Source of the DNA: Alphaproteobacteria bacterium
GTDB lineage: Bacteria; Pseudomonadota; Alphaproteobacteria; UBA9219; RGZA01
Length of the DNA stretch: 64,000 nt
Assembly: GCA_033762625.1 (NCBI GenBank)
Contig: JANRLI010000007.1
Coordinates: 151,541 to 215,540 of the forward strand
Direction of reading: 5' to 3'
Shown in pieces: positions 33,090 through 64,000 of the stretch (within the stretch, counting starts at the first letter, position 1; every line of letters starts with the position of its first letter). The notes under the pieces are model-generated. The model searched no databases, was not told the DNA's origin, and saw only the letters and a list, made by a program, of their open reading frames with translations. The position numbers and the translations under genes are program-made.

Positions 33090-33098
33090 GCGATAAGC

Positions 33099-34296: not shown

Positions 34297-34404
34297 TCCT
34301 TTTGTAATACATTTGCAATAATAATACTACAAAAAGTAGTTACATTCAATTCGTTTTTTTGCAAAAGTGAAAAAAGCGAACAAAAAAATCTAATAAAAAC
34401 AATA

Positions 34405-48714: not shown

Positions 48715-48743
48715 TATTTGGTGACGCGGGATAGAGCAGCCCG
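48715..48743 (+). repeat. 29-bp direct repeat duplicating the first 19 nt of tRNA-Met plus 10 nt of 5' flank
   Basis: tatttggtgacgcgggatagagcagcccg recurs identically at 48798-48826 (10 nt of flank, then tRNA-Met 5' end 48808-48826). An inverted copy gctaccgggctgct of tRNA D-arm sequence lies at 48771-48784. Confidence 0.7.
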
Positions 48744-48807
48744 CGGTTTGCACAAGCAAACTAACAAAATGCTACCGGGCTGCTTTGCAGCGCGGTTTAT
48801 TTGGTGA

Positions 48808-48884
<77 letters not shown>

Positions 48885-49086: not shown

Positions 49087-51759
49087 TCAGAAGTTGTACT
49101 TCTTCCGGCGCTGCATAAATGCCTCCTTGCCGCCCTCAAGGATTTCCTCGGCCAGCGCGGCGACGCTCTTCTTGTCGATCGAGCCCATATGCTCCGGTGG
49201 AACATCGGCATGCCCATCACCTGCTTCGCCGACCGCCCTCATGCCAATGATCAGCTCTGCGTCGCCGAGCACTGGAATGTTGGCATTGTGAGAGGAGAAG
49301 ATGAACTGACGTCTGCGCTTCTCAGCACGGATGCGTGGCACGATGCCCTCGGAGATGAACCGGTTATCGAGATTGTCTTCCGGCTGGTCGAGCACCAGCG
49401 GAGCCTCTGCATCGAGCAGCAATAGATACAGCAGCGCCGTCGCTTTCTGCCCTGTCGACAGATCTCCCAGTTTTCGCCATTCCGGCGGTGCGCGCTCTGC
49501 ACCGACGTTCAACTCGATTTCAGTAACGTGCGGCAGATCTAACTCTTCTACTAGCATTGGTAGCTCTGGCCCGGCGGCCGCCAATTTCTCTCCTTGCGCG
49601 GTCGGTATACCGAATTCCTTGTTAAGGGGCTCCTTTCCTGCCCGCAGCGCCTCCGCCAACGCCCCCAGCGACAATTGCTCCTTCTTCGCTATTGCGGCGC
49701 TGGCCTCGGCAAAGCGACCAGGGCGCTGCTTAATGAGATCGAGAAGGGCTGTGCGGTCGGCGCCATAGCGAACAGTGACTCGTAGGCGATCCGGCAGTTC
49801 TCGGCTCACCTTCTTGGCGGCTTTTTCCAACCGCTGGAACGTCTCACGCTTAAGGTCCTCCCAGGCGGCAAGATCATTGCGCCGCCGCTGCTCGAAGGCT
49901 TTTTGTCGCGTCTCCAACGCTGCCTTTTGGCCCTGCAAAGGTGACAAGCGCTCGATGTCCTGGCGGAGCTTGATGAACTCGTTGCCGTCGATCTTATCCC
50001 TTTGTAGATCGCGCAAGGCAGCCTCGTAAGCTTGTTGCGACGCCTTTTTCTCCGTATCGATGGCGCTAGCTACAGAGGCGATTTCGCTTTCGGCTACGGC
50101 CAAAGCATTTGCCAGCAACTTTTGCGCCTCTTCCACGGCGGCCTTCAACCGTGTGATCGTTGCGCCCAGTCCCTTGAGCAATTCAGCCGCCGGTAGCTCC
50201 TTCAATGCCACCTCTGAGATGAAATCGGCATCCACGTCGACTGCTTCTAGCAGGCCATCGCGGGCATCGCGGACCGGCTGCAGCCGTTGTTTAGCTGTGC
50301 TGATGATGGCTTCGGCCTTCACGATGACGTCGCGGGATTTAAGCTTCTCCTCGACACCGGCGGCACGATAACGGTTCAGCGTTTCCGTCAACGCCGGCAA
50401 AGCTGCTAGTTGCTCGTCAACTTTTGTGGCTTTTCCTATGCAATCGAGAATGCCTTGGCGACTTTCCTTCAGCTTTTCCTGGAGGTCCTGGTACCTCTCG
50501 TCGGCCGCGCCATCTACCGCGACAAAGCGATATAGCAGTGATGTCAGTTTCTCCGGGCTGCGCGCTAGTTCCGCCAACTCGTTCTGGCCATAGACAGCGG
50601 TTCCGCGGACGATGTCTATGGGCTTTTGTTTCAACACGTCGCCGTTTTCGTCAATGACCCTCGGCGGATCAGGCACGGTTCGTTCGATCAGGAAGCGGCG
50701 CCGGTCTGGCTGGTAAGACTGCACGAGCAAGGAGATCTTGGTACCGCTCTTCAACACACCGCTGATAATACCATTGTGAATGTCTTTGGCATCGTCGCCT
50801 ACTGGCTCAAGCCCCAGCACGTAGCGCAGACTCTCGATCACCGTGGACTTTCCTGAGCCGCGCCCTCCAATGAGGACGTTTAGGTTCTCGTTGAAATGTA
50901 TCCGGCAGCTTCGGAGGAACCCCTCCGTCTCCCAAGCCATTCCGATGAATTCGACGTGCTCTTCAGGGCCCGGATCGCTGGCTAGACGAATGCGGGAGCT
51001 TGGATCGAGGAATGCTTGCCGGAGCCCTTCGATTGTGGGCTCAGTCATCTTGACCATGCACCATGCACCGCCGCGCGAAACATCATCCGGGCTCTTCACG
51101 TCGCCGCAGTTTAGCACGCTGATATGCCGGTCACGATGATAGGCAGGGTCAGTGTTCTTAAGGATCGGTCTCACATCCTCCGGTGCATCATTGACCGGTC
51201 CGGGAATAGCACAGGCCGCGAGTTCTTCGTGCCTCCAGATGGCGCTTCGTGCTTTTCCAGCCTGTAGTGCCCGAAATAGTCCACCGGCGCTGGCTACATG
51301 AGCTACGATGCACTGCATCTCCCATTTCGGGCAATTGTCCAGCAGTTCGCCTGCCGATAGCTCACCGAGCGGCGAAGCTTCCTCATCGTCATGCACTCCG
51401 CAGGCGCTGATGCAAGACTGTACGGCATCAAAGGTCTTAGCGGGGTCGAAGAGGCAAAGGACGTGGACGCCCTCGCGTGTCACTGCCTCGAAACCGGGGA
51501 ACACCACGATGCCAGCAGCCCGCGCGGCGTTGGCAAGGCTTTCAGCACCCCTTATCCGGTAGTGATCGGTGATAGCGATGACCTCGATATCAGCGTCACG
51601 GCATGCCTTGATGATCGCTTTATTGTACTCATCTTCGCTCTTGTACGCAGTCGGGTGCTTGTGACGGAGAACGTAGTCAAATGTGTTGACTTGGAATGCG
51701 CACCGGAAAAAGCGCGATCCGTTCGGCAATGCCTTCAGTTGTTCTAGAAAAGGATGCAT
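49087..51759 (-). CDS. PHP phosphoesterase domain fused to an SbcC/Rad50/SMC-like coiled-coil ATPase (890 aa); last gene of the defence operon
   Basis: N-terminal ~270 aa is PHP-like (IAITDHYRIRG, FPGFEAV). It has Walker A LIGGRGSGKST, a long coiled-coil middle, a C-terminal ABC signature LSTGQKATAL and Walker B/D-loop PLVLDQPEDNLD. Confidence 0.7.
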   Translation of the reverse strand: MHPFLEQLKALPNGSRFFRCAFQVNTFDYVLRHKHPTAYKSEDEYNKAIIKACRDADIEVIAITDHYRIRGAESLANAARAAGIVVFPGFEAVTREGVHVLCLFDPAKTFDAVQSCISACGVHDDEEASPLGELSAGELLDNCPKWEMQCIVAHVASAGGLFRALQAGKARSAIWRHEELAACAIPGPVNDAPEDVRPILKNTDPAYHRDRHISVLNCGDVKSPDDVSRGGAWCMVKMTEPTIEGLRQAFLDPSSRIRLASDPGPEEHVEFIGMAWETEGFLRSCRIHFNENLNVLIGGRGSGKSTVIESLRYVLGLEPVGDDAKDIHNGIISGVLKSGTKISLLVQSYQPDRRRFLIERTVPDPPRVIDENGDVLKQKPIDIVRGTAVYGQNELAELARSPEKLTSLLYRFVAVDGAADERYQDLQEKLKESRQGILDCIGKATKVDEQLAALPALTETLNRYRAAGVEEKLKSRDVIVKAEAIISTAKQRLQPVRDARDGLLEAVDVDADFISEVALKELPAAELLKGLGATITRLKAAVEEAQKLLANALAVAESEIASVASAIDTEKKASQQAYEAALRDLQRDKIDGNEFIKLRQDIERLSPLQGQKAALETRQKAFEQRRRNDLAAWEDLKRETFQRLEKAAKKVSRELPDRLRVTVRYGADRTALLDLIKQRPGRFAEASAAIAKKEQLSLGALAEALRAGKEPLNKEFGIPTAQGEKLAAAGPELPMLVEELDLPHVTEIELNVGAERAPPEWRKLGDLSTGQKATALLYLLLLDAEAPLVLDQPEDNLDNRFISEGIVPRIRAEKRRRQFIFSSHNANIPVLGDAELIIGMRAVGEAGDGHADVPPEHMGSIDKKSVAALAEEILEGGKEAFMQRRKKYNF

Positions 51760-51770
51760 AAAATCTCGGC

Positions 51771-54700
51771 CTATACTTGGAAAATTTCATCGAGCGACGT
51801 TGCGTGCACAAAACGTGCAGGATTGTCAGCCGCGGCAATCGCAGTGAAGTGGGCTTTTCCGCACGCTATCTTGGCGGCTTCCTTGTCGCGCAGATCATCC
51901 TTGAACAGGCTGCCCTTGGTCTCGACGACGAAGTAAAGGCGCTCGGTGCCGTTCTTCTCGACCAGTACGGCCCAGTCGGGATTGTAGAAGCCGAGAGGGG
52001 TGGGTACTTTGAACCATTGCGGAAGCTTGGCGTAGACGCGGACAGCATCGTTCGCTTCGAGTGCTTCCGCAAAGGGGCGTTCGATGGTCTCTGAATCATA
52101 TACGACGTACTCGTAGACCGAGCGTTTGGACGCGATCGCGTTCTTCATGAAGCGCACCAGCTCCTGACTCTTGAAAAGCTGCTGACAGTAGAATTGGTCG
52201 TCGCCGAGCCGCTGATACTTGATGCCGTCTACGAGCGCGAGGCGCTTGGTGCGGTTGATGCACTCAGCGGCAATCTCGATGAATTCCTGCGGGTTACGTT
52301 TGAAGTCGTTGAGCCGACCGCTGTCCTTCAAGATGCGCACGATGCTGCGTCGGGTGAGCTGGGTCTTATCTTGCAAATCTGTGAGTAGGTCCGGCAGTTC
52401 TATGTCGTTCTCATCCAGCGTGATGTAATTGGTGCTGGTCGCATCGCCGGCAATCACGCCCCCTTTACCGATGGCTAGATCGGCCTTTCGGACATGGATG
52501 CGCGCTTTACTGATGGCGGGGCCGTCACCCAACGCTTTTGCACAGCTTGCTATCAGCTTCTCGTTGTCGAATTCCACTCGGTAAGTCGTCTTGTGCTTTA
52601 TGCGGTCCCATAGCTCTTTGAACTCTGGGCTATCCAGAACGGCCTGCCGAGTCCGAATGGTTTTCTTGGCATCCGCATCTTTGATTTCCAGGCGACCGGC
52701 GAGCTTGCGAAGTATCTCGCGCACTTGAGCAGCGTGTGGTGCAAGGTGCTTAGGCAGGGTAAGCGTATTATCTTTTAAAGCTTTGCGCAGCTCGTCCTGG
52801 ACCTTGCCTTGGGCATTCACGAGGCCTTCACCTTTCAGGTGCTCGAAGATTGCCTTCGACTCATCGAAGCCGAGCACGCCGAGTGTGCCATCAGCCTTCG
52901 TCACTGTGATGGCAGCGAACTGCTGCGGTTCCACGATGCCAAACCGGTAGCCGGTCTCTCGCTCGATCTCCGTCTGCAATTGCTCGGCGAAGCTCTCGTA
53001 GCTTTCGTTGGCTATGACCGTCAGGATGTTAACGTTCGTGTCGCGCACACGCTCGCCATTCTGATTGACGCAGATGCGCAAGCCGCGCCCGATGCTCTGG
53101 CGGCGCTCGCGTTCCGTGCCGATTTCACGCAGCGCGCAAATCTGGAAGACGTTCGGGTTGTCCCAGCCTTCGCGTAGCGCGGAGTGGGAGAAAATGAACT
53201 TCAGCTTGGTATCGAAGCTGAGCAGCTTCTCCTTGTCGCGCATGATGAGATTGTAGGCGCGCTCGGCGTTGTCCCGGTTCGACTGGTTGTTCTCAGCCGT
53301 GTCGCTCCACGCGCCCTTCTTGTCGATGGAGAAATAGCCATTGTGGACGTCCGCCGCTTCGGTCGTTACGTCGACATCTTTGAACAGCGTCTGGTACTCG
53401 GGAAGCTTGGCCGCGCGGCGGTACTCCTCCTCGAACATCAGTGCGTACTTGCCTTTGTGAGCTGTCGACTGCTTCTTGCCGCCGATCTCCTTCTCCTCGT
53501 AGCGGCGATAGTTCTCGACCGCATCGATAAAGAACAGGCTCAGCACTTTGATGCCGAGGGGGGCAAGGCGCACCTCGGCATCCAGATGCTCTTTGATTGT
53601 GCGGCGGATCATCTGACGCTTGACTTGATCCGGATCGACCTCGCCAATAGCCTGGCCGGTCTCCAGGAACTTCTCTTCCCCTGGCATCTTGATCTCGGCG
53701 AGCTGCTGGCCACGGCCAGCGCGTATCTCGCCGATGCGATAGCCGCGATAAACCTGCCGTCCTGTCAGCTCCTCCAGATCGTCACCATCGCGCACTGCTT
53801 TTTCCATGCGCCGCACGCCGCCTTGCTGCTGTACGTCGATCTCGACGCGCGCGGTGACGCCATTGGCACGCGTGCTCGACGTGGCGACGAGACGGATATA
53901 CGGCTTGTTGTGAACGCCCTCGACTTCCATGCCGGCGACGGAGATCTGCTTGACCAGCTTCCGCTCGTAGGCATCTACGGCATCGAGCCGGTAGACCATG
54001 TGATGCTTGTCGGCGTGGGTTGCCGAATAGCGCAATGTGCTCAGCGGATTGAGCTTCTCAATGGCTTTGCGACCCTGGCCTTCGAGACCGCCGTCGACGG
54101 ATTGCGGCTCGTCGATGATGACGATTGGCCGGGTTGCGGAGACCAGATCAATCGGGCGTTCGTCGGCGAGCTTCTCGTTGCGGCGATACATGACGTTGGT
54201 TGTTGGCCTGTCGCGCGCATCAAGATGCTGCGCTTCGTCCTCGTCACCGAAGCGATTGATGGCGCCGACGGTGATGACCATGATGCGGATGTGCGGGCTT
54301 GTGGCGAAGTCGCGCACGAGGCCGAGCTTGGCGGAATCATAGATGAAGAAATCGTAGCCTTTGGCCGAAGGGAAGTACTGCTCGAAGTGTTCGCGCGTGA
54401 TCTGCAGCGTCTTGAACACGCCCTCCTTGATGGCGATGGAGGGGACGACTATGACGAACTTGGTGAAGCCGTACTGCCGGTTCAGCTCGAAGATAGTGCG
54501 GAGATAGACGTAGGTCTTGCCGGTGCCGGTCTCCATCTCGACGGTGAAGTCGCCGGAAGAGAGCGTGTCGGAGGGCCGAACGCCGTTGCGCAGCTGCACA
54601 GCATGTAGGTTGGCTAGCAATTCGTCGTCCAGCAGGGTGAGGCGGTTGCCGATGCCTAGTCCAGACTCTTCAAGCCCGAGCGACTTTTGCATTCCAGGCT

Positions 54701-54863
54701 TCACGCCGAGATCGGCGCCGCCGAACTCAAGGCCGATCTGCCCACGAGTTGGCTTAGTGACAGTGAACTCGGTGCGGCAGATTTCTTGGCCGCGGAAAAG
54801 GTCAGCGACAGCGTTGACAGCTTGTTCCTGGAAGTCGAGGGGCCATTCAAAGTGAAGCTTCAT
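51771..54863 (-). CDS. res: type III restriction enzyme Res subunit (SF2 helicase plus C-terminal PD-(D/E)xK endonuclease)
   Basis: Motif I ETGTGKTYV, motif II VIIDEPQS. The C-terminus FYNPDWAVLVEKNGTERLYFVVETKGS is a PD-D/ExK nuclease. 1030 aa. It lies 10 nt downstream of mod. Confidence 0.85.
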   Translation of the reverse strand: MKLHFEWPLDFQEQAVNAVADLFRGQEICRTEFTVTKPTRGQIGLEFGGADLGVKPGMQKSLGLEESGLGIGNRLTLLDDELLANLHAVQLRNGVRPSDTLSSGDFTVEMETGTGKTYVYLRTIFELNRQYGFTKFVIVVPSIAIKEGVFKTLQITREHFEQYFPSAKGYDFFIYDSAKLGLVRDFATSPHIRIMVITVGAINRFGDEDEAQHLDARDRPTTNVMYRRNEKLADERPIDLVSATRPIVIIDEPQSVDGGLEGQGRKAIEKLNPLSTLRYSATHADKHHMVYRLDAVDAYERKLVKQISVAGMEVEGVHNKPYIRLVATSSTRANGVTARVEIDVQQQGGVRRMEKAVRDGDDLEELTGRQVYRGYRIGEIRAGRGQQLAEIKMPGEEKFLETGQAIGEVDPDQVKRQMIRRTIKEHLDAEVRLAPLGIKVLSLFFIDAVENYRRYEEKEIGGKKQSTAHKGKYALMFEEEYRRAAKLPEYQTLFKDVDVTTEAADVHNGYFSIDKKGAWSDTAENNQSNRDNAERAYNLIMRDKEKLLSFDTKLKFIFSHSALREGWDNPNVFQICALREIGTERERRQSIGRGLRICVNQNGERVRDTNVNILTVIANESYESFAEQLQTEIERETGYRFGIVEPQQFAAITVTKADGTLGVLGFDESKAIFEHLKGEGLVNAQGKVQDELRKALKDNTLTLPKHLAPHAAQVREILRKLAGRLEIKDADAKKTIRTRQAVLDSPEFKELWDRIKHKTTYRVEFDNEKLIASCAKALGDGPAISKARIHVRKADLAIGKGGVIAGDATSTNYITLDENDIELPDLLTDLQDKTQLTRRSIVRILKDSGRLNDFKRNPQEFIEIAAECINRTKRLALVDGIKYQRLGDDQFYCQQLFKSQELVRFMKNAIASKRSVYEYVVYDSETIERPFAEALEANDAVRVYAKLPQWFKVPTPLGFYNPDWAVLVEKNGTERLYFVVETKGSLFKDDLRDKEAAKIACGKAHFTAIAAADNPARFVHATSLDEIFQV

Positions 54864-54873
54864 TGGCCGATCC

Positions 54874-56871: not shown

Positions 56872-57638
56872 CCTTGCCCCCTCGCAAGTGTTGCCTTGGC
56901 CGCAACGAGCTCCGCCTCCAGCCTCTGGATGGCGAGGTTGAGCTCGACGCGGCGGTTAATCTGGGTTTCCCGCGCGGCCTTCTTGCGCAACATGGCAATC
57001 TCGCGTGTGACCCGCGTATGGGTGTCGAGCGCCGCGCGCCGCAAGGCCGCTTCCTCAGGAGACTTTGGCAGGTTGAACGCTCCCGTCAAGTTCGACGCAG
57101 CAAGCCCCGCACAGCAATCGATCCAGCCCTGATAGAGTGCCCACAAATGCTGCTGAGGCTGCCGGGCAATGCTCAAACTTGCCAAGAAGGTTGCCCCCAA
57201 CGCGTCACCCTCAGAGCCGGTTGTGGCACATACCAGGGGCCCATCGAGCACCACTGCGGCCTTTTCAGCCTGGGATGCGCGCTTGTGAGCCAGCGACAGC
57301 TGCACAGTCTCGCCGTCCGCTACGAGCAGAAGCACGGGGTAGGGCACGGCTCGATGGATCAACTCCGTCAAGCGGGCTACCTTCGCACCTTCACGAAGAG
57401 AGGCTGTGATGATGGCTATTTCCAGATATTCGCCTGCTTCACCTTTCCAAATGGGCACGCCAATGTTGGTTGGCTTGAGCGCGGCAATCCAGAGCAGCTC
57501 ATTGACGCCATCTTGTATGGCACGCTTGTCGGCAGCGGTCGGCGCACCCTGTTCGGTTAGCAGTTTCTTTGTAATGCGCTGATCAACCCGAGCAGTATCG
57601 GGGATGGCGAGAGCACTAATAACTGCGTCCAGCGTCAT
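56868..57638 (-). CDS. hypothetical protein, 256 aa; possibly DUF4391-like
   Basis: Overlaps the helicase stop and the mod start by 4 nt each. My family assignment is from memory of similar helicase/mod/res neighbourhoods. No catalytic motif is visible. Confidence 0.45.
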   Translation of the reverse strand: MTLDAVISALAIPDTARVDQRITKKLLTEQGAPTAADKRAIQDGVNELLWIAALKPTNIGVPIWKGEAGEYLEIAIITASLREGAKVARLTELIHRAVPYPVLLLVADGETVQLSLAHKRASQAEKAAVVLDGPLVCATTGSEGDALGATFLASLSIARQPQQHLWALYQGWIDCCAGLAASNLTGAFNLPKSPEEAALRRAALDTHTRVTREIAMLRKKAARETQINRRVELNLAIQRLEAELVAAKATLARGQG

Positions 57639-60600
57639 GTGCTGCCGCCTTTGCCCTCCTCAGGCAGTACGATGAGAAAGGCAACCACTTCAAAATCATT
57701 GATGCCTGCAAATTCGCCCTTCATGGCGTGTGTGCCGCCTGGCGCGAACAGGCTCGCTGCAGCGCGCTCCTCCTTCTTGCCGACAATGGAGGCAACTGCA
57801 CGCGCCAGCAGTTTTTGGTACGACGACATATCCGCACCTTGCTTTGTAGAGCGATCGAGGCGGGCCCATGCCTTGGCGTCCGGTTCCGTGCGATCAAGCG
57901 CCAGTCGCTTTAGGCGATCGAGCACCTGCTTGACCTGTGTGTAGGGCAGCAGGACGTCACCGCCGTCGCCGATATGGACGAGGTAGTGCGGTGCCAACGG
58001 GTAACCTGGCTCGATGCCTTGCAAGGCAGTCTCACTTGCCGCGCGAAGGCAGAAGATGACACCGGATGAGATTGCGCTGTCTCCGATTTGCGGAGCTGTC
58101 ACTACGGCAGACAAGCCGAGTGGCATTGCATCAAGTTCGGCGCGGCGACTCTTGATCTGACCTGCGAGATCGATGCGGAAATCGTTGAGCGTTAGATCGG
58201 CGATGGAAACGCCACTTGACAGATCCTCAAGGTCAATGACGGTGTCTTGGAGCTTCTGCAGCTGGTTACGGCGATATTCGAGGTCATTCATCTGATTACC
58301 AGACTGGTGCTCGATGACGTTTTCCTCTCCGGTTGCTGAAACGTCGAGCAGGACCATGCGTCCACTGACGCGCTGTTCGAGATTGATGTATTCGTCTAGC
58401 TCCATGTTGGGCCAAAAATTGACCAGCTGAACGGACGTGTTCGGCGAGCCGATGCGATCAATGCGCCCGAAACGCTGGATGATGCGAACCGGATTCCAGT
58501 GAATGTCATAGTTGATGAGAAAGTCGCAATCCTGGAGGTTCTGGCCTTCAGAGATGCAATCAGTGCCGATCAGAAGGTCAATCTCGCCTTCCTTAGCAAG
58601 CTCGGCAGGACGCTCCTTTGAGCGTGGCGAGAATGCGGCAAGGATGCTGCCAAGGTCGGCTCTCACAGACTTAAGAGTGGTGCGGTTTGGCCCCGCCCCT
58701 GTGACGAGCGCAGCATCGACGCGATGCTCCTTCGCAGCCCACGGAGCGAGCTCTTTGTAAAGATACTCAGCCGTATCGGCGAAAGCCGTAAAGATCAAAA
58801 TCTTGCGATTTTTGTCATTGAGTGGGTTAGCCATCTTGCGCGTGATGATATCGCGCAGATCGGCCAGTTTGGCATCCCGGCTCGGGATGACTTGGAGAGC
58901 TGCTTTGAGCAGTGCCGATAGCCGCTTCCGATCTTCATCGAGATCTTGGCGCCATCGCACGCGGTCAACATCGTGCAGCAGAACCTTCACTTTCCGTCCG
59001 ACCAGAAGAGACTCGAATGCAGCATCATCGACGTCGATATCGTCGATCGATACCTCCTCAACATCGTCGTCGTGGGCATCTATCCGGGCGATCACATGCT
59101 CCACATCCTTAAGCTGACGTTGGATTGTCAATGCGAATGAAGCGACGGAGCTTTCCATGCGCTTCAAGATGTTGACGCGCAGCAGGTGAACGAGGCTTTC
59201 CTCGCGGTCAACCTGCCGAAAAATGCTTTCGCCGCCACGGATCTTGGTACTGTATTTCTCATCGTAGGCGGCTTGCTTGTGGCGAAGCACGTAGCGCAGC
59301 GGGGCGTAGGCGGCGAGCGTCAATCGGCGGATTTCGTTGTTGATCTCGCGGATCGGCCGAAACTCAGCGGCGAGGTCCACGTCGGACTTAATGTTTAGCG
59401 GCTTGCGGCGCTCCGGGAAGCGGCCAGTTTCAGTGATCCCGTAGTATTTCTCGATGTGTTTGCGCGAACGCGCGATGGTCAGCAGATCAAGCAACTTGAA
59501 GTAGTCGAAGCCCAGCATCTCAATGAGGCGGGAGGGACGTCGATCCTCCTCAGCAAGGTCTGACCAGCGGTTGAACTGCGATTGGGCCTGACGAACCGTT
59601 GCTTCGATACTCGGAATGTTGTGGGTGGCTAGTGCCGTGTCATTTCCCTCGGTCGCGAACGCGATCTGGTTCTTGAGATCTGCGAGCCGATTGTTCACCG
59701 GCGTTGCCGATAGCATCAGCACCTTAGTCTTCACGCCAGCGCGGATAAGCCGGTTCATGAGACGGTCATACCGGGTCTCGCGTTCCTTGTGTGGCGCCTT
59801 GTTCCGGAAGTTATGAGACTCGTCTATGACGAGCAGATCGTAGTTTCCCCAGTTAACGTGGCTGAGGTCGATGTCACCTGATAGGCCACCATCGCGTGAT
59901 AGATCGGTGTGGTTGAGCACGTCGTAGTTTAAGCGGTCAGGGGCCAGCACGTTGCGGCGATCGTTGGCCTTATAAAGCGTCCAGTTGTCTCGGAGACGTT
60001 TGGGGCAGAGCACCAGCACGCGGTCATTGCGTAGTTCGTGATACTTGATGACCGCAAGAGCCTCGAACGTCTTTCCGAGACCAACACTGTCGGCGATGAT
60101 GCAGCCACCAAATCGCTGCAACTTATCGATCGCGCCAATCACTCCGTCTCGCTGAAACTTGAACAGTTTGTTCCAAACCACAGTGTCGCGAATGCCGGTT
60201 GCCGAACGGACAATGCGATCCTCGTCCAGTTCCTCACTCATGTCTTTGAAGATCTGGTAGAGTATATGGAAGTAGGCGCCAGCCGGCGCGTGTTCTGTTG
60301 CAAGCGAGGCAACGCGATCTACGAACGCTTGCTGAGAGTCAGGGTCATCTTTGAGTTGTGACCATTGAGATTCAAACCATTGCACGAGCGGCGCGGCATC
60401 CTGCTCATCCTCAGCTATTTGGATAAAGCCGATTTGGTTGCTGGGAGTGAGCCCGATACCGTCAGTTGTCAAAGCGCAGGTGCCGACATACGCGCGCTGC
60501 GCCTCTGACTGCGTGGCAATCATCAACGCTTGTGGGATCGCCGAAGTCGTAGAGCGAACGGCTATGGCCGAGCACCAACGAGCCGCTGTGCGCGCGATCC

Positions 60601-60841
60601 AGCGTGTTCGCAGTCGATTGCGAAACACGCGGTCAGCGTCTGATCCAAGAAGCGACTGCGCCGCATTCGAACTTCCAATAATCAACCTGCAACGTTCAGC
60701 GGTGGCCAGAGCCTCTTGAACCTCCTCGAAAGCAAAAAGGGAAAACTCCGGTGAACAGATATCCAGAGCTGTACCGGGTTTCACGAAGCCTCGAAGTTCG
60801 TCGACAAGGCGCTCGCTGCCCGAATTACGCAGAAGCTTCAT
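57635..60841 (-). CDS. SNF2-family helicase with a ~230-aa N-terminal domain of unknown function
   Basis: DExH box LLVIDESHNFRN and motif I ADSVGLGKT. C-terminal motifs V/VI LIGTDCISEGQNLQ and QRFGRIDRIGS. 1068 aa. The N-terminal domain may be a degenerate PLD-like nuclease fold. Confidence 0.8.
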   Translation of the reverse strand: MKLLRNSGSERLVDELRGFVKPGTALDICSPEFSLFAFEEVQEALATAERCRLIIGSSNAAQSLLGSDADRVFRNRLRTRWIARTAARWCSAIAVRSTTSAIPQALMIATQSEAQRAYVGTCALTTDGIGLTPSNQIGFIQIAEDEQDAAPLVQWFESQWSQLKDDPDSQQAFVDRVASLATEHAPAGAYFHILYQIFKDMSEELDEDRIVRSATGIRDTVVWNKLFKFQRDGVIGAIDKLQRFGGCIIADSVGLGKTFEALAVIKYHELRNDRVLVLCPKRLRDNWTLYKANDRRNVLAPDRLNYDVLNHTDLSRDGGLSGDIDLSHVNWGNYDLLVIDESHNFRNKAPHKERETRYDRLMNRLIRAGVKTKVLMLSATPVNNRLADLKNQIAFATEGNDTALATHNIPSIEATVRQAQSQFNRWSDLAEEDRRPSRLIEMLGFDYFKLLDLLTIARSRKHIEKYYGITETGRFPERRKPLNIKSDVDLAAEFRPIREINNEIRRLTLAAYAPLRYVLRHKQAAYDEKYSTKIRGGESIFRQVDREESLVHLLRVNILKRMESSVASFALTIQRQLKDVEHVIARIDAHDDDVEEVSIDDIDVDDAAFESLLVGRKVKVLLHDVDRVRWRQDLDEDRKRLSALLKAALQVIPSRDAKLADLRDIITRKMANPLNDKNRKILIFTAFADTAEYLYKELAPWAAKEHRVDAALVTGAGPNRTTLKSVRADLGSILAAFSPRSKERPAELAKEGEIDLLIGTDCISEGQNLQDCDFLINYDIHWNPVRIIQRFGRIDRIGSPNTSVQLVNFWPNMELDEYINLEQRVSGRMVLLDVSATGEENVIEHQSGNQMNDLEYRRNQLQKLQDTVIDLEDLSSGVSIADLTLNDFRIDLAGQIKSRRAELDAMPLGLSAVVTAPQIGDSAISSGVIFCLRAASETALQGIEPGYPLAPHYLVHIGDGGDVLLPYTQVKQVLDRLKRLALDRTEPDAKAWARLDRSTKQGADMSSYQKLLARAVASIVGKKEERAAASLFAPGGTHAMKGEFAGINDFEVVAFLIVLPEEGKGGST

Positions 60842-63069
60842 GGCGTCTCTCTGCGTTGCTGATGAGTGGTCTCAGTTCGATCCGAGGTATCGTCTACTTC
60901 ATCCCCAAGTCTCGCCAACAGTTCCTTCAGACTAACTCCATCAGCCTTCCAGACACGCCAACCGTTCTCCGATTTCCTAATCTGGCCTACACTGGCGTAG
61001 CACCGGACGGCTGCATCGCTAGGCGAGAAGATGCCATCAGCGATTTTGATGCCGCTCCCGGTGATTTGACCGGTGAAGCGGTGATCCTTGTATGAGAGTT
61101 GAAGTGCATCACCGCCTTTGAGGCTGCCAGATGCGATGAGGCGCTGTAGACGTTCTGTGAAGTGCGGTGTCGAAGTTGGTTCGGTCGCCGTCCTTTTGCG
61201 AGTGTCCGCCGGGCGCGGCCAGAGCGTGAGGCCACGTTCAAACAATTCATTGCCACGAGAGATGATGTCGGCTTCTGACCAACGCTTGTGTTCGCCACTG
61301 CGCAGCCAGGCATTGAGGCGCAGATCACTGTCTGTAACGATAGCTTTGCTTTTGCCTGCGAACGCGCCATTGCTGACCGAAGTGTTCAGCGCCTGTGTGA
61401 GCAATGTGAGGTTGCCAATCGTGTGTAATATGCGGCTACGGCAACGCTCGTGCGTTTCATCGTCACGGATTGGCATGCTATCAGCGTAGGGGTAGTCACT
61501 CAGCACATATTTCTGCGGCAACAAGTGCTCGATCGAAAGCTTTGTGGGAATCTGAAGCGCTTCGTTGCGCGTTGTGCGACTGACTTCTTCAATGGCTCTT
61601 AGCACCATGGCAGCACGCTCGGTGCGCGTCTTCATATAGATAGGTTCTGAAAGCCACGCTTTGCGGAACTCATCGTCAGACGGCCAAATCGCCGTCTTCT
61701 CCTCGGAGCGCAGCAGCTCATCGCGGATCGCATCGGCGATCGATGCGTGATCGCTTGCCGCCTTCTTCGCCTTGCTGAGAAGACCGAGGAAGAACTTGTT
61801 GTAGTTCTTGGTGGTTAGACCGCAAATCAATCGGCGCACAAGGAAGGATTCGAGATCTACGATGGCGCGTTCGAGCTGATCGGTCGGAAGCACGTCTTTG
61901 GGTTGCGCCATCAGGAAGAGGAGCAGGGGATAGACCGTGCTGGTGTCCAATGCTTTTAGGCGGCGCGCGAACACCGCGAGACGATCATTCCCTTCTGGTG
62001 CGATCAGCTGTTGGAACCGTGCGCTCTGCGTCTTGAGATCGGCGAGCAACTTTTCGACGTTGCCATCACCCTTCTCATGCCATTCGCGGAATTCTTTGAA
62101 GAGCTGGCCGATGTTCAGTTCACGCTCGGTGTGGAGCGTGAGGTAGTGGAAGAGGAAGAGATCGATGCGCGGGCGGGTGAGGCGGCCTTGTCGCTCCAGC
62201 ATGTGCCAGAAGCGATCTTCGCCTGTGTCGTCGGGCAGGTCCTCGCGCAGATCGTCGAAAGCCTTCCAGTAGTTCTCATAAAGTTTGTCGCTCGACTTGT
62301 CGGCCTTGGCCGTTGCCTTCAGGAACACGTAGTTGCGCACGAGATCGGATGGCAGCAGAGGCTGACCACGCGCATTCAGTGTCTCGAAGATCACCTGCGG
62401 ATCATCGCCCTGTTCAAGCTCGATCACCACGAACAGCAAAGAGGTGCGCATCGCCTGAGCGATCGCATGAATACGATCGGCCTTCTCGTCAGCCGTCTTT
62501 CCTTCATCGGCGAACTGCCGGATCACATCGGCAAAATAGAGGTACGCTTCCGCCATGCGCGGCAACGCTTGCTCCGCCGGCGAACCCTCACGCGCATAAA
62601 GTGCTTTGACCGCAGCTGGGCCGCCAGCACGCATCACGGCGCGAAACACATCTCGGTCGGCGTTGGTCGGCCAGACCTTCAGCTCTTCATCTGAACCTTC
62701 ACGATCGGGATTGACTGACCAGCGCGCCGCCTGCTTCTGGACGCGTTGATCGATTTCGGTCGCGCAATCGCGCAGCGCGGCGATGAACAGTTGGAGGGTC
62801 GTTAGGCGCTGCTGACCGTCGATGACATCTGCCTTCGCGATAGCACGGCCCTGAACCTGATTGATGCTCCACACTGCGGCGCCGAGGAAGTGCGAGCCAA
62901 GCTTTCCGGTGCTGTCCTGTAGCGCACGTTCGGCCTGCTTGCGGATGTCGTCCCAGAGAGGCTCCCATTGGTCGTCTTGGTTCCAGACATAGGCGCGCTG
63001 ATAGAGCGGGATGTCGTAGCGGCGCTCCTTCTCGAAGACGTCGTGGATCGTGAATTTGTGTGGCTGCAT
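60838..63069 (-). CDS. GmrSD-like nuclease (N-terminal DUF262 plus C-terminal DUF1524 His-Me finger)
   Basis: IPLYQRAYVW and DGQQRLTT (DUF262 DGQQR motif). C-terminal IEHLLPQ...HTIGNLTLLTQALNTSVSNGAF is an HNH-like block. The probable start is ATG 63069 (MQPHKFTIHDV) with a GGGGGGA ribosome-binding site. The ORF-table start is 63168. Confidence 0.75.
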   Translation of the reverse strand: MQPHKFTIHDVFEKERRYDIPLYQRAYVWNQDDQWEPLWDDIRKQAERALQDSTGKLGSHFLGAAVWSINQVQGRAIAKADVIDGQQRLTTLQLFIAALRDCATEIDQRVQKQAARWSVNPDREGSDEELKVWPTNADRDVFRAVMRAGGPAAVKALYAREGSPAEQALPRMAEAYLYFADVIRQFADEGKTADEKADRIHAIAQAMRTSLLFVVIELEQGDDPQVIFETLNARGQPLLPSDLVRNYVFLKATAKADKSSDKLYENYWKAFDDLREDLPDDTGEDRFWHMLERQGRLTRPRIDLFLFHYLTLHTERELNIGQLFKEFREWHEKGDGNVEKLLADLKTQSARFQQLIAPEGNDRLAVFARRLKALDTSTVYPLLLFLMAQPKDVLPTDQLERAIVDLESFLVRRLICGLTTKNYNKFFLGLLSKAKKAASDHASIADAIRDELLRSEEKTAIWPSDDEFRKAWLSEPIYMKTRTERAAMVLRAIEEVSRTTRNEALQIPTKLSIEHLLPQKYVLSDYPYADSMPIRDDETHERCRSRILHTIGNLTLLTQALNTSVSNGAFAGKSKAIVTDSDLRLNAWLRSGEHKRWSEADIISRGNELFERGLTLWPRPADTRKRTATEPTSTPHFTERLQRLIASGSLKGGDALQLSYKDHRFTGQITGSGIKIADGIFSPSDAAVRCYASVGQIRKSENGWRVWKADGVSLKELLARLGDEVDDTSDRTETTHQQRRETP

Positions 63070-63580
63070 GGCCGTCCCCCCCAGGTACCTTCCAGCATAA
63101 AGAACAGGGCGATAAACACAACGAGAGGCTGCATACTTCTTTGTTGAGAATGGGCGAGTTTTCCACATTTATTCAACGACTTGAAAGAAGGTGGGCGCGT
63201 CCGCCAGCAGTAGCGGCGGACCGGGCTCTCGTGAACCGAGCCGCCTGAAGGCGAAGTGCGGGCGTCTCGGCCATCCGGCATCGATCCCTCGCGCGTGTCG
63301 TTCAATGTGATGCCGGCAGTCCACTTGTCTCAGCATCGGTGACACTCAGCGATCGCCGCGTGATCCATAGATCGCGATGTCAGGTTCGCTGCCTGGTTGG
63401 TATTGGGCCCGCTCGGCTCACGTGGCGCGCTTTAGCGCCGCGTCGACCGCGCGCAAGGCATAAAGCCTCCTTCACTTCGTTGCGGCCCCTAAAGGGGTGC
63501 GCGCGGTCTCATGCCGCGTCGCTCCGGAAAGCGCGTTGAGCCGAGCATTGGGCCCGGCTCCGCACTTGAAGGAGCTCACC

Positions 63581-64000
63581 ATGACACGTCCATCTCATCC
63601 AGATCTGCATCAACAGGTCACCGACACCATCATCCGTGCGGTCGAGCAGGGCGGCACCACCGTCACGCTGCCCTGGCATCGCTCTGGACTGCCTGCAATG
63701 CTGCCGCACAATGCGCACTCGAAAGCGGCTTACAACGGCATCAACATCGTCGCACTGTGGTCCGCAGCCATGCTGCGCGGTTATCCGCATGCGATCTGGG
63801 CTACCTATCGCCAATGGGCCGAGCTGGGCGCGCAGGTGCGCAAAGGCGAGAAGGCCTCGACTGTCATTTTCTACAAGGAGCTCGACGTCGATGTGCCTGA
63901 CGACGCTTCTGGCGATGACGGCAAACGTCGCGTTGCCCGCGCGTCATCCGTGTTCAATGCTGCGCAGGTCGATGGCTTCACTGCGGCTGAACTGCCGGAG
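63581..64000 (+). CDS. ardC: ArdC-like (DUF1738) antirestriction/ssDNA-binding protein N-terminal domain; 3'-truncated by the window edge
   Basis: My own translation from ATG 63581 is open to 64000. MTRPSHPDLHQQVTDTIIRAVEQGG...PWHR...PHNAHSKAAYNGINIVALW...WATYRQWAELGAQVRKGEKASTVIFY matches the conserved ArdC N-terminus. It sits in a very GC-rich stretch. Confidence 0.65.
   Translation, partial: MTRPSHPDLHQQVTDTIIRAVEQGGTTVTLPWHRSGLPAMLPHNAHSKAAYNGINIVALWSAAMLRGYPHAIWATYRQWAELGAQVRKGEKASTVIFYKELDVDVPDDASGDDGKRRVARASSVFNAAQVDGFTAAELPE

What the first reader, a model, noticed from the sequence alone, without database searches (positions are those of the whole stretch)
49087..63168. Six-gene, translationally coupled defence operon immediately downstream of tRNA-Met
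The six genes are GmrSD-like nuclease, SNF2 helicase, DUF4391-like protein, type III Mod, type III Res and a PHP-SbcC-like ATPase. All are co-directional, with three 4-nt ATGA-type overlaps and two gaps of only 10 nt, so they very likely form one transcript.

The operon would combine a methylation-dependent type IV nuclease (DUF262/DUF1524), a methylation-based type III R-M pair, a chromatin-remodeller-type helicase and a PHP-ATPase in one unit. I cannot match that composition to a named defence system (not DISARM, BREX, Dnd, Lamassu, Gabija or Druantia as I know them).

A Mod-Res pair flanked by a helicase plus DUF4391-like pair is a neighbourhood I believe recurs in genomes without experimental characterisation. 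Adding a GmrSD upstream and a PHP-SbcC fusion downstream makes this instance unusually elaborate.

The region is visibly GC-richer than the flanking core (GCG/CGC-rich codons), consistent with horizontal acquisition.
Basis: partly seen in the sequence, partly recalled or inferred. Interest (0 to 1): 0.85.

Follow-up and report, generated by a model that had tools for sequence, protein, structure and literature searches.

The report
Type III restriction system with extra motor
The six genes are real and tightly packed, but they are a mosaic: a widespread, unnamed and unstudied four-gene DNA-restriction system (a type III enzyme pair plus a nuclease-dead SNF2 motor and a small DUF4391 protein), flanked by two known, independently mobile defence genes.

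Summary
Six intact minus-strand genes (49087-63168) have three ATGA overlaps and gaps of 10 and 11 nt. They are GC-rich (0.57 vs 0.49) and sit between tRNA-Met and an ArdC gene of a mobile element.

The "one six-gene system" reading is only partly right. Anchored on DUF4391, 81 loci from more than 10 phyla show SNF2 upstream in 66/67, Mod downstream in 56/59 and Res in 44/45, always in the same order. Anchored on Res, 16/17 loci have both extra genes. The four genes co-evolve (Mantel r 0.86-0.96). The order persists on E. coli IncF and archaeal plasmids at 24-32% DUF4391 identity.

GmrSD and the TrlF-family PHP-ATPase are swappable cargo. DNA homology to the two closest relatives starts exactly at the SNF2 start codon. 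It ends at the Res end in one relative and at the TrlF stop in the other. TrlF homologues mostly sit alone elsewhere.

The SNF2 protein is related to HKD+Snf2 effectors such as MANTIS MtsD, but its PLD domain has lost the catalytic residues. DUF4391 has no PADLOC or NCBIfam model, no solved relative and no literature in the library searched.

Verdict: a new variant of a known kind. It is widespread, uncharacterised and testable in E. coli.

The parts
48808..48884 (+). tRNA-Met (CAT). It marks the left edge of the GC-rich island and is convergent with the operon.
   Evidence: ARAGORN. GC steps up from about 0.48 to 0.54-0.58 here. The left flank is core genome: purE, an ADH and TrcR. The tRNA 3' end is not repeated elsewhere in the window.
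49087..51759 (-). G6: TrlF-family PHP + ABC/SMC-like ATPase (890 aa). Autonomous defence-island cargo in the 3' slot.
   Evidence: NCBIfam TrlF_fam_ATP scores 485.5 bits against a cutoff of 350. Ppl scores only 187 against 1000. Pfam finds PHP, AAA_21, AAA_23 and SMC_N. Walker A is GGRGSGKS, the signature is LSTGQ and Walker B is LVLDQ. Homologues at 51-74% identity sit in unrelated islands, alone or with TrlG-like genes. Only the 88% relative L086 has it after the same core. Homology to L086 ends exactly at its stop codon, and homology to L006 ends before it.
51771..54863 (-). G5: type III Res (1030 aa), an SF2 ATPase with a C-terminal PD-(D/E)xK nuclease. Core gene 4.
   Evidence: PADLOC REase_III E=0 (1221 bits, full length). 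Pfam finds ResIII and RE_endonuc PF19778. Motifs are GTGKT, IIDEPQ and QSIGRGLR. P962-D963 and E981-T982-K983 are invariant in 8 diverse homologues and at least 95% conserved in 52.
54874..56871 (-). G4: type III Mod (665 aa), a beta-class N6-adenine methyltransferase. Core gene 3. The central target-recognition region (about aa 178-534, window about 55270-56341) is a swap zone.
   Evidence: PADLOC MTase_III 7.5e-209. Pfam finds N6_N4_Mtase. DPPY at residue 122 precedes FAGSG at 439. Against L006 the two ends are about 95% identical and the centre has diverged. The DNA homology gaps are 56342-55269 (L006) and 56314-55326 (L086).
56868..57638 (-). G3: DUF4391 protein (256 aa). Core gene 2. An N-terminal alpha/beta domain is followed by a C-terminal three-helix bundle. 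It is probably a non-catalytic partner of the SNF2 motor.
57635..60841 (-). G2: SNF2-family ATPase (1068 aa). Core gene 1. The N-terminal domain of about 210 aa (window about 60212-60841) is a degenerate PLD/HKD domain.
   Evidence: Pfam finds SNF2-rel_dom and Helicase_C. PADLOC 'HKD+Snf2' scores 8.4e-113, aligned from model position 153 only. The nearest PDB relatives are RapA, SNF2H and Rad54-like proteins. Motifs are GLGKT, DESH, SAT and QRFGRIDR. hhalign of the N-terminal profile against a real PLD-helicase gives probability 91% and E 1e-6, with the HxK and GSxN residues replaced. Full-length BLASTP gives 1e-38. 339 of 1068 positions are at least 95% conserved over 52 systems.
60838..63168 (-). 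G1: GmrSD-family type IV (modification-dependent) restriction enzyme with a C-terminal RAMA-like domain (776 aa; possibly 743 aa from Met34 at 63069). Autonomous cargo in the 5' slot.
   Evidence: Pfam GmrSD_N 4.5e-35 and GmrSD_C 1.9e-24. RAMA scores 32.7 bits, below the 35.2 cutoff. PADLOC mREase_IV 3.8e-78. DGQQR and EHLLP motifs are present. Homology to L006 and L086 starts at the SNF2 start codon; those relatives carry an HTH_37 gene in this slot.
63581..64000 (+). 5' part of an ArdC-type anti-restriction gene, cut by the window end. It shows that the operon lies inside a larger conjugative or integrative element.
   Evidence: Pfam ArdcN 1.7e-34. GC is 0.629 over 63169-64000. ArdC also neighbours the core in L006 and a solo TrlF in L088.

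Best explanation
The cluster is a mosaic of three defence modules on a mobile island at tRNA-Met. They are packed tightly enough to be co-transcribed.

**Module 1, the core (G2-G5).** This is a conserved four-gene restriction-modification system.
- Mod is a beta-class N6-adenine methyltransferase with an exchangeable target-recognition region. It marks host DNA and supplies sequence specificity.
- Res is an SF2 ATPase with a PD-(D/E)xK nuclease. It cuts unmarked DNA, as in type III R-M.
- An SNF2-family ATPase and its small partner DUF4391 are obligatory additional subunits. The PLD nuclease domain of the SNF2 protein has lost its catalytic residues.

**Most likely mechanism (inferred).** SNF2-DUF4391 forms a second ATP-driven DNA motor or loader. 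It is recruited to, or gates, the Mod-Res complex, and it is needed for efficient restriction. This would parallel the second ATPase of MANTIS, BREX and DISARM. The nuclease role has passed from the dead PLD domain to Res.

**Module 2 (G1).** A self-contained GmrSD type IV enzyme that attacks modified DNA. This covers phages that escape the R-M by hypermodifying their DNA.

**Module 3 (G6).** A self-contained TrlF-family PHP-ATPase of unknown trigger, related to the single-gene Ppl system.

**Shown:** gene content, intact motifs, cohesion and co-evolution of the four core genes, and the independence and exchange of G1, G6 and the Mod recognition region.

**Inferred:** physical complex formation, the role of SNF2-DUF4391, and all activities.
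For: **Core cohesion**
- In 81 non-redundant DUF4391-anchored loci from more than 10 phyla, SNF2 is directly upstream in 66/67, Mod is downstream in 56/59 and Res in 44/45. Order and strand are always the same.
- Anchored on Res (80 metagenomic loci), the window's Res clade has DUF4391 in 21/24 and SNF2 + DUF4391 in 16/17.
- The order is kept at 24-32% DUF4391 identity on E. coli IncF, Acinetobacter, Vibrio IncC and archaeal plasmids.
- Mantel r values: SNF2-DUF4391 0.96, SNF2-Res 0.92, DUF4391-Res 0.90, Mod-Res 0.87, all p = 0.001.

**Modularity**
- DNA homology to L006 and L086 begins at the SNF2 start codon.
- It is interrupted only over the Mod recognition region.
- It ends 16 nt before the Res stop (L006) or exactly at the TrlF stop (L086).
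- L006 has HTH_37 and an HSDR_N nuclease in place of G1 and G6.
- Other copies carry different passengers.
- TrlF homologues are solo or paired with TrlG-like genes elsewhere.

**Dead PLD domain:**

**Intact enzymes:**

**Precedents**
- GmrSD embedded in methylation-based systems: PMC8565348, PMC11411939.
- Cargo insertion into defence operons: PMC11232893.
- A dual-ATPase methylation system with an HKD-SF2 effector: bioRxiv 10.64898/2026.09.23.753747.
Against: - No experiment exists for any member. The role of SNF2-DUF4391 is inferred from linkage only.
- Three loci in the window's Res clade lack DUF4391 upstream of Mod although there is room (L115, L118, L124). A more distant Res clade exists as plain Mod-Res. 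So Mod-Res of this general type can probably work alone.
- TrlF-like genes follow a type III Res in three independent lineages: window/L086, L033 and L160. This may be more than chance, so some functional coupling of G6 with Res is not excluded.
- The ATGA overlap of G1 with G2 means G1 is at least expression-coupled to the core.
- The PLD homology rests on one profile-sequence comparison at 91% probability. Pfam, PADLOC and a PDB profile search of the N-terminus found nothing.
- Co-evolution could partly reflect co-transfer without physical interaction.
Confidence: 0.72

Rival explanations
1. One reading: all six genes form one integrated defence system in which GmrSD, the type III pair, SNF2/DUF4391 and the PHP-ATPase depend on each other.
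For: All six genes are co-directional, with 4-nt overlaps or gaps of 10-11 nt, and no internal terminators or promoters above chance. All six have similar GC and GC3. The TrlF gene is kept after the core in the 88% relative L086. TrlF-like genes also follow Res in L033 and L160. GmrSD-type genes recur in or near the operon in about 7 of 161 loci.
Against: No other locus sampled has the six-gene combination. The closest relative L006 (SNF2 93%, Res 95%) has neither G1 nor G6. Homology breakpoints fall exactly at the G1/G2 junction and at the Res/TrlF junction. GmrSD positions vary between upstream, embedded and downstream. TrlF homologues are mostly unlinked to type III. Both families are known as, or look like, autonomous units.
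Confidence: 0.08
2. SNF2 + DUF4391 is an independent two-gene defence system that merely travels next to a classical, self-sufficient type III R-M pair. This would be defence-island co-localisation, not a four-subunit machine.
For: Single SNF2-nuclease proteins can defend alone, for example HmaA (PMC11232893). Plain Mod-Res loci exist in the sister Res clade, and three loci of the window's clade lack DUF4391. Passenger genes are often inserted between DUF4391 and Mod (15/64) and between Mod and Res (23/47), so the operon tolerates interruption.
Against: Linkage is almost absolute in both directions, with fixed order, across bacteria and archaea. SNF2-Res distances correlate (r = 0.92) as well as Mod-Res (0.87). 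In the loci sampled, DUF4391 lacked a Mod with room to show one in only 3 of 59. The SNF2 protein has lost its own nuclease residues and DUF4391 has no catalytic signature, so the pair has no evident effector of its own.
Confidence: 0.1
3. The composition is as in the best explanation, but SNF2-DUF4391 acts on the modification or self-protection side. It would load or activate Mod, or restrain Res on host DNA, as MtsA/MtsB do for MtsC in MANTIS. It would not assist cleavage.
For: [quoted passage not shown] DUF4391 sits immediately before Mod and overlaps it by 4 nt. The dead nuclease domain is compatible with a purely regulatory motor.
Against: Classical type III Mod methylates without helpers. 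G2 is homologous to the MANTIS effector MtsD-type proteins, not to the loader MtsA (DUF499). There are no data either way.
Confidence: 0.18
4. The module is not primarily anti-phage. It might serve the mobile element as an addiction or exclusion function, or act as an epigenetic regulator.
For: It is located on ICE-like islands and conjugative plasmids, next to ArdC. R-M systems are known to behave as selfish addiction modules (established knowledge).
Against: An intact nuclease, rapid exchange of the recognition region and consistent embedding of anti-phage passengers are the hallmarks of active restriction systems. Addiction and defence are also not mutually exclusive.
Confidence: 0.05

Closest known systems
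Classical type III restriction-modification (EcoP15I, EcoP1I, StyLTI)
   Same: A mod gene lies upstream of a res gene. Mod is a beta-class N6-adenine methyltransferase (DPPY before FxGxG) with a central recognition region. Res carries SF2 ATPase motifs and a C-terminal PD-(D/E)xK nuclease. PADLOC type III models give top hits (7.5e-209 and E=0).
   Different: Two further genes, SNF2 and DUF4391, are conserved and co-evolve as part of the operon. Res matches the StyLTI-type NCBIfam model only below its cutoff (358 bits against 564). Classical systems are two-subunit enzymes (PMC4490356).
MANTIS (formerly Gao_RL / BREX-related type 2): MtsA-MtsB-MtsC-MtsD
   Same: It is a four-gene, methylation-based system with two ATPases and a small protein of unknown role. 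Its effector family (HKD/PLD nuclease fused to an SF2/Snf2-like ATPase) is the nearest defence relative of G2: PADLOC 'HKD+Snf2' 8.4e-113, and 24% identity (1e-38) to a plasmid PLD-helicase. An exchangeable methyltransferase recognition region sets specificity in both.
   Different: There is no DUF499 AAA+ ATPase (MtsA) and no DUF3870 protein (MtsB). The PLD domain of G2 lacks the HxK and GSxN residues. The nuclease here is a type III Res. The methyltransferase is a type III Mod, not the MtsC type. Gene order differs.
DISARM (DrmD SNF2 helicase + methyltransferase) and BREX type 3 (BrxHII SNF2 helicase)
   Same: Both combine a self-marking methyltransferase with an SNF2-family ATPase. G2 gives partial hits to DrmD and BrxH models.
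   Different: The hits cover the helicase core only and fall far below the cutoffs (DrmD 161 bits against 610). DrmA, DrmB (DUF1998), DrmC, PglZ, BrxC and BrxL are all absent.
BREX + BrxU on pEFER, and type I R-M + TgvAB in Vibrio VPI-2
   Same: A GmrSD-family type IV enzyme is embedded in, or fused onto, an operon of a methylation-based system. The two give complementary cover against unmodified and hypermodified phages (PMC8565348, PMC11411939).
   Different: The host system here is the SNF2/DUF4391-type III core. G1 also carries a RAMA-like C-terminal domain. Complementarity has not been tested here.
TRL locus of Photorhabdus (trlR-trlF-trlG) and the single-gene Ppl system
   Same: G6 passes the NCBIfam TrlF family cutoff. 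Its PHP + ABC-type ATPase architecture is shared with Ppl.
   Different: There is no TrlG (AlbA_2 + HATPase_c_4) or TrlR next to G6, although TrlG-like genes follow TrlF in L177 and L178. Ppl scores are far below its cutoff (187 against 1000). In Photorhabdus no phenotype was mapped to trlF itself (PMC7554251).

Membership tests
Type III restriction-modification | Mod subunit: a beta-class N6-adenine methyltransferase (motif IV DPPY before motif I FxGxG) with a central target-recognition region | tested here: met
   DPPY at 122 and FAGSG at 439. PADLOC MTase_III 7.5e-209 over the full length. The central region is exchanged relative to L006 and L086.
Type III restriction-modification | Res subunit: SF2 helicase-like ATPase with a C-terminal PD-(D/E)xK endonuclease, encoded directly after mod | tested here: met
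   GTGKT, IIDEPQ and QSIGRGLR motifs; PD963 and E981-x-K983 conserved. PADLOC REase_III E=0 and Pfam RE_endonuc 3.5e-36. The mod-res gap is 10 nt.
Type III restriction-modification | A two-component enzyme: Mod and Res alone suffice | not testable with these tools
   Genomic evidence argues for two more obligatory partners (SNF2 66/67, Res-anchored 16/17, Mantel r 0.90-0.96). Sufficiency needs genetics.
Type III restriction-modification | Hemimethylation of an asymmetric site, and cleavage that needs two inversely oriented unmethylated sites | not testable with these tools
   This needs methylome data and cleavage assays.
MANTIS / Gao_RL | MtsA: a DUF499 AAA+ (ORC/Cdc6-clade) ATPase | tested here: not met
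   No DUF499 or AAA+ ORC-type protein is among the six genes.
MANTIS / Gao_RL | MtsB: a small DUF3870 protein | tested here: not met
   The small protein here is DUF4391 (3.2e-64), with no other Pfam or PADLOC hit.
MANTIS / Gao_RL | MtsD: an active HKD/PLD nuclease fused to an SF2 ATPase | tested here: not met
   G2 is homologous (PADLOC HKD+Snf2 8.4e-113; hhalign 91% for the N-terminal domain). However, the HxK and GSxN catalytic residues are replaced in all 15 aligned family members.
DISARM | DrmA helicase + DrmB (DUF1998), plus DrmC or DrmD and DrmMI/MII | tested here: not met
   There are only sub-threshold DrmD and DrmA helicase-core hits (NCBIfam 161 bits against a cutoff of 610). There is no DUF1998.
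BREX | PglZ phosphatase, BrxC ATPase and PglX methyltransferase | tested here: not met
   None are present. BrxHI/HII hits to G2 cover the helicase core only.
GmrSD-family type IV restriction enzyme (G1) | An N-terminal DUF262 domain with the DGQQR motif plus a C-terminal DUF1524 His-Me/HNH-type nuclease in one polypeptide | tested here: met
   GmrSD_N 4.5e-35 and GmrSD_C 1.9e-24, both above cutoffs. DGQQR at 117 and EHLLP at 547. PADLOC mREase_IV 3.8e-78. Substrate specificity was not tested.
TrlF family AAA-like ATPase (G6) | A full-length match to NCBIfam NF045780 above its curated cutoff, with an N-terminal PHP domain and an ABC/SMC-type ATPase | tested here: met
   485.5 bits against a cutoff of 350, covering residues 13-889. 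PHP 4.4e-5, just under the Pfam cutoff. Walker A, Walker B and the signature motif are present.
TRL operon (trlR-trlF-trlG) | TrlG (AlbA_2 + HATPase_c_4) and TrlR encoded next to TrlF | tested here: not met
   Only a 202-nt spacer and tRNA-Met lie downstream of G6, and Res lies upstream.
Ppl (Gao et al. single-gene system) | A match to the Ppl equivalog model above its cutoff | tested here: not met
   NF042955 scores 187 bits against a cutoff of 1000. The PADLOC Ppl hit (4e-38) has its best stretch over the C-terminal ~120 residues only.
Hma (HmaA-HmaB-HmaC) | SNF2 helicase with a NOV_C nuclease, a DUF1156 methylase and a DUF499 ATPase | tested here: not met
   The HmaA hit is to the helicase core only (2.8e-22). 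There is no NOV_C, DUF1156 or DUF499.

The most novel reading that the evidence does not exclude
SNF2(dead-PLD)-DUF4391-Mod-Res is a distinct, ancient and widespread class of ATP-dependent restriction-modification. It would be a dual-motor type III system in which the SNF2-DUF4391 pair is a required subunit, either for loading or activating Mod-Res or for driving long-range communication or degradation. Such a class would form a mechanistic and evolutionary bridge between classical type III R-M and the BREX-related and MANTIS systems. It would give DUF4391 its first function.
Probability: 0.4. Interest if true: 0.75.

Novelty: new variant of a known kind. Interest (0 to 1): 0.6.

Why it matters
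Type III R-M has been treated for decades as a two-subunit enzyme.

**Scale of the variant.** A large clade always carries two more co-evolving genes. It occurs in more than 10 bacterial phyla and in archaea, on ICEs and conjugative plasmids including E. coli IncF. One of the two extra genes is an SNF2 motor that has discarded its own nuclease. The other is a domain of unknown function with no structural relatives.

**Gap in current tools.** The defence-annotation models tested here would call only 'type III R-M', 'type IV' and perhaps 'Ppl', and would leave SNF2 and DUF4391 unexplained.

**What a test could show.** If the extra pair is needed for restriction or methylation, the textbook picture of type III enzymes changes. 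The system would also link them to the newly described dual-ATPase methylation systems.

**Other value of the locus.** It is a clean natural example of slot-wise exchange of defence cargo and of methyltransferase specificity, with breakpoints resolved to the codon.

**Practical point.** The E. coli plasmid copies make the question directly testable.

Tried and rejected
1. **Rosetta-stone fusion.** P0250 (1419 aa) ends in DUF4391, but its N-terminal 1160 aa is an SF1 helicase with a RecB-like nuclease, not SNF2. It is a fused or read-through cargo gene, like the inserted ORF in L051. It is not evidence for SNF2-DUF4391 contact.

2. **DUF4391 as a PD-(D/E)xK nuclease.**
   - Foldseek found nothing: E at least 0.05 and TM at most 0.28.
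   - No conserved acidic/lysine triad exists.
   - The idea is rejected as unsupported.

3. **A small HTH_37 gene as a fifth core component.** It is found only in the two closest relatives, L006 and L086/L087, so it is not general.

4. **Direct detection of the PLD domain in the G2 N-terminus.** Pfam (E up to 10), PADLOC (E up to 10) and a PDB profile search all found nothing. Only hhalign against a real PLD-helicase worked.

5. **Source lookups.** The exact-sequence lookup of G3 failed. A megablast of the operon against E. coli genomes found nothing.

6. **afdb50 fold library.** It was not available.

7. **Literature.** Searches for 'DUF4391', 'PF14335', 'type III restriction' + 'SNF2' and variants gave no description of the module. 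The Goslar-phage paper's 'DUF4391' appears to be a slip for DUF7941.

8. **att repeat.** The tRNA-Met 3' end is not repeated elsewhere in the window, so the far island boundary lies outside it.

Full report
**1.

Six long ORFs occupy the minus strand at exactly the stated coordinates. The table gives their sizes and family assignments.

| Gene | Coordinates | Size | Family assignment |
|---|---|---|---|
| G1 | 60838-63168 | 776 aa | GmrSD_N + GmrSD_C, plus a sub-threshold RAMA domain; PADLOC type IV enzyme 3.8e-78 |
| G2 | 57635-60841 | 1068 aa | SNF2-type ATPase |
| G3 | 56868-57638 | 256 aa | DUF4391 (3.2e-64); no PADLOC or NCBIfam model |
| G4 | 54874-56871 | 665 aa | type III Mod (7.5e-209) |
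| G5 | 51771-54863 | 1030 aa | type III Res with the RE_endonuc domain (E=0) |
| G6 | 49087-51759 | 890 aa | PHP + ABC/SMC-like ATPase; passes the NCBIfam 'TrlF family' cutoff (485 bits against 350) but not the Ppl cutoff (187 against 1000) |

- The junctions are three ATGA overlaps, one 10-nt gap and one 11-nt gap.
- All catalytic motifs are intact.
- Internal promoter-like and terminator-like sites do not exceed shuffled expectation.
- tRNA-Met lies at 48808-48884 on the opposite strand, 202 nt from the G6 stop.
- GC is 0.570 in the operon against 0.488 in the rest of the window. GC3 is 0.64-0.74 against 0.49-0.54.
- Left of the tRNA are core genes: purE, an alcohol dehydrogenase and TrcR. 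Right of the operon an ArdC anti-restriction gene begins at 63581 and runs off the window. The operon is therefore the tRNA-proximal end of a larger conjugative or integrative element.
- A 100% identical DUF4391 protein is on record from an Alphaproteobacteria MAG, on a 280-kb contig.
- The G1 start is uncertain. Met34 has a Shine-Dalgarno-like GGGGGGGA and the annotated ATG has none.

**2. Four of the six genes form a conserved unit**

*Anchored on DUF4391.*
I kept 80 loci from more than ten phyla.
- I ran tblastn with the six window proteins and counted only loci with enough flanking DNA.
- SNF2 is directly upstream in 66 of 67, Mod is downstream in 56 of 59 and Res in 44 of 45. Order and strand are always the same.
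- The association survives at 24-32% DUF4391 identity. E. coli IncF plasmids, an Acinetobacter plasmid, a Vibrio IncC plasmid and a Methanomethylovorans plasmid all show helicase-related/SNF2, then DUF4391, then DNA methyltransferase, then DEAD/DEAH (Res). They are annotated gene by gene with no system name.

*Anchored on Res.*
- I used 80 metagenomic loci at 37-65% identity and HMMs for each component.
- The window's Res clade has DUF4391 in 21 of 24 loci. It has SNF2 + DUF4391 in 16 of 17 where there is room.

*Co-evolution.*
- Across 52 complete systems the pairwise distance matrices of the four proteins are strongly correlated.
- Mantel r values are SNF2-DUF4391 0.96, SNF2-Res 0.92, DUF4391-Res 0.90 and Mod-Res 0.87, all p = 0.001.
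- The extra pair therefore tracks Res at least as closely as Mod does.

*Family size.* DUF4391 comprises 1,949 clusters at 50% identity in a library of 1.84 billion representatives.

**3. GmrSD and the PHP-ATPase are exchangeable cargo**

*Frequency.*
- Among the 161 anchored loci, a GmrSD-type gene is near the core in about seven. Its position varies between upstream, embedded and downstream.
- A TrlF-like gene follows Res in L033, L086 and L160 only.

*The closest relative.*
- L006, a Hyphomicrobiaceae MAG, has SNF2 at 93%, DUF4391 at 87% and Res at 95% identity.
- It carries a small HTH_37 gene where G1 is and an HSDR_N-type nuclease where G6 is.

*DNA breakpoints.*
- Homology to L006 runs 60842-56342 and 55269-51787.
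- Homology to L086 runs 60840-56314 and 55326-49087.
- Homology therefore begins at the SNF2 start codon in both relatives.
- It is broken only over the central part of Mod.
- It ends 16 nt before the Res stop in L006 and exactly at the TrlF stop in L086.
- The Mod gap is a classic recognition-domain exchange. The protein ends are about 95% identical and the centre has diverged.

*TrlF contexts.* I sampled seven homologue loci at 51-88% identity.
- One is linked to this core (L086).
- Four are alone or with unrelated genes in other islands. One of these is next to ArdC and one is in Burkholderia pseudomallei.
- Two are followed by an AlbA_2/HATPase_c_4 gene. This is the TrlG architecture of the Photorhabdus 'temperature restricting locus' that gave the family its name (PMC7554251).

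*Passengers in other copies.*
- Inserts longer than 400 nt occur between SNF2 and DUF4391 in 6 of 63 loci, between DUF4391 and Mod in 15 of 64, and between Mod and Res in 23 of 47.
- The inserted genes are RhuM, GmrSD, YhcG/DUF1016, AlbA_2-HATPase_c_4, Abi_2, PDDEXK_3, SF1 helicases, Fic and Zeta.
- Downstream neighbours are AAA_15/AAA_21/OLD-type ATPases, HNH, PIN, GmrSD and a PHP-ATPase.
- The same habit is documented for Hma (PMC11232893), for BREX with BrxU (PMC8565348) and for the Vibrio type I system with TgvAB (PMC11411939).

**4. What the two extra core proteins are**

*G2.*
- It is a true SNF2 ATPase with GLGKT, DESH, SAT and QRFGRIDR motifs. Its nearest solved relatives by sequence are RapA, SNF2H and Rad54-like proteins.
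- It is exceptionally constrained. 339 of 1068 positions are at least 95% conserved across 52 systems.
- Its best defence-model hit is PADLOC 'HKD+Snf2' (8.4e-113), but the alignment starts only at model position 153.
- The next-nearest plasmid relatives are annotated as phospholipase D-like proteins.
- A Haloquadratum example aligns at 24% identity over 795 residues, E = 1e-38.
- A profile of the G2-family N-terminus aligns to the PLD domain of that protein with 91% probability and E = 1e-6 over 199 columns.
- In that alignment G2's ...PQALMIAT...YVGTCALTTDG lies opposite ...FHPKGACF...VIGSSNFSEKG. The catalytic His, Lys and Asn are replaced, and none of the 15 aligned family members has an HxK.
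- G2 is therefore a relative of HKD-SF2 effectors such as MtsD of MANTIS (bioRxiv 10.64898/2026.09.23.753747; see also PMC12839542), with a dead nuclease domain.
- This rests on one profile comparison. Pfam, PADLOC and a PDB profile search of the N-terminus were negative.

*G3.*
- The model is confident, with pLDDT 88 and pTM 0.84. It has an alpha/beta domain (residues 1-160) and three long helices.
- Only 16 residues are near-universal: P13, K24, W50, L54, P56, E73, R89, P99, P101, L104, R120, Y169, G186, E224, Q226 and N234. There is no nuclease-type triad.
- I read it as a non-catalytic partner or adaptor of the SNF2 motor.

**5. Mechanism**

*Shown:* a type III-type Mod-Res pair with intact enzymes and an exchangeable recognition region, and two extra genes that are inherited with it.

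*Inferred:*
- Mod methylates host sites and targets Res to unmethylated DNA, as in EcoP15I (PMC4490356).
- SNF2-DUF4391 is a second ATP-driven module required for full activity. Most likely it assists restriction, for example by translocation, clearing of bound proteins or relaxing site-orientation rules.
- Alternatively it loads or activates Mod, as MtsA/MtsB do in MANTIS.
- The loss of the PLD residues in G2 fits a system in which Res supplies the nuclease.
- G1 adds modification-dependent restriction. G6 adds an unknown ATPase/phosphoesterase activity.
- Both are probably co-transcribed with the core but functionally autonomous.

*Caveats:*
- Three loci of the window's Res clade lack DUF4391.
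- A sister Res clade is either plain Mod-Res or carries a different, shorter canonical SNF2 ATPase without DUF4391.
- TrlF-like genes follow Res in three independent lineages, so some coupling is not excluded.

**6. Comparison and novelty**

- The core meets the sequence-level definitions of type III Mod and Res. It breaks the two-subunit rule at the genomic level.
- It is not MANTIS: there is no DUF499 or DUF3870 protein and the HKD domain is dead.
- It is not DISARM, BREX or Hma, because their defining genes are absent.
- I found no name for it in PADLOC v2, NCBIfam or Pfam.
- I found no description of it in the searchable literature. Subscription-only papers and REBASE could not be checked.
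- I classify it as a new variant of a known kind. It is widespread, uncharacterised and experimentally tractable. A distant version sits in 10 of 5,426 complete E. coli genomes, almost all on plasmids.
However, it is a mosaic and not a single elaborate machine.

Noticed in passing
window 48715-48743 and 48798-48826: A perfect 29-nt direct repeat. The second copy is the 10 nt before tRNA-Met plus its first 19 nt, so a 5' fragment of the tRNA is duplicated 83 nt upstream. It may be a scar of an earlier integration or excision on the core side of the tRNA.
   Followed up: partly
window 63581-64000 (runs off the window end): An ArdC-type anti-restriction gene (ArdcN 1.7e-34) lies divergent from the operon, in DNA of GC 0.63. 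ArdC also lies near the core in L006 and next to a solo TrlF in L088. The same family of conjugative elements seems to carry both restriction cargo and anti-restriction genes.
   Followed up: partly
L146, L154, L159, L165, L170, L172, L173, L174 (for example L154:5342-8059): A sister clade of type III Res (37-42% identity) has a different, shorter (~900 aa) canonical SNF2 ATPase (PF00176 about 1e-33) directly upstream of Mod, with no DUF4391. This is a second, three-gene 'SNF2 + type III' architecture.
   Followed up: partly
L177:9697-10926, L178:9829-10824; embedded ORFs listed: TrlG-like genes (AlbA_2 + HATPase_c_4) directly follow TrlF homologues in two unrelated genomes. The same architecture is among the commonest passengers inside the DUF4391 operons (HATPase_c_4 in 5 of 44 ORFs, AlbA_2 in 3). 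TrlF and TrlG may be a wider two-gene defence pair beyond Photorhabdus.
   Followed up: partly
L160:13006-15663 and L033:17057-19738: Distant TrlF-like PHP-ATPases sit 30-115 nt after a type III Res in two further lineages. In L160 the system is plain Mod-Res, with no SNF2 or DUF4391. Whether PHP-ATPases are enriched after type III Res was not tested statistically.
   Followed up: no
protein P0250 (1419 aa); compare L051:6582-9989: This protein is DUF4391 fused to, or read through from, an SF1 helicase with a RecB-like nuclease. That is the kind of gene found inserted between SNF2 and DUF4391 in some loci.
   Followed up: yes
L107:10004-12955: A Res homologue is broken into four ORF fragments, and no Mod, SNF2 or DUF4391 was detected nearby. 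It is apparently a decayed copy.
   Followed up: no
L092 (NZ_CP075717.1 25504-34844) and 9 other E. coli genomes: A distant version of the four-gene module is carried on E. coli plasmids (10 of 11 places; IncF for pCPWW7), often next to IS elements. PGAP labels the Res 'type III restriction-modification system endonuclease' and leaves the SNF2 as 'helicase-related protein'.
   Followed up: partly
window 33000-35000 and 4000-6000: There are local GC dips to 0.44-0.45 in the otherwise ~0.49 GC core part of the window. Three further tRNA genes (Lys 4494-4569, Pro 13382-13459, Arg 13918-13994) are also present. None of these was examined.
   Followed up: no
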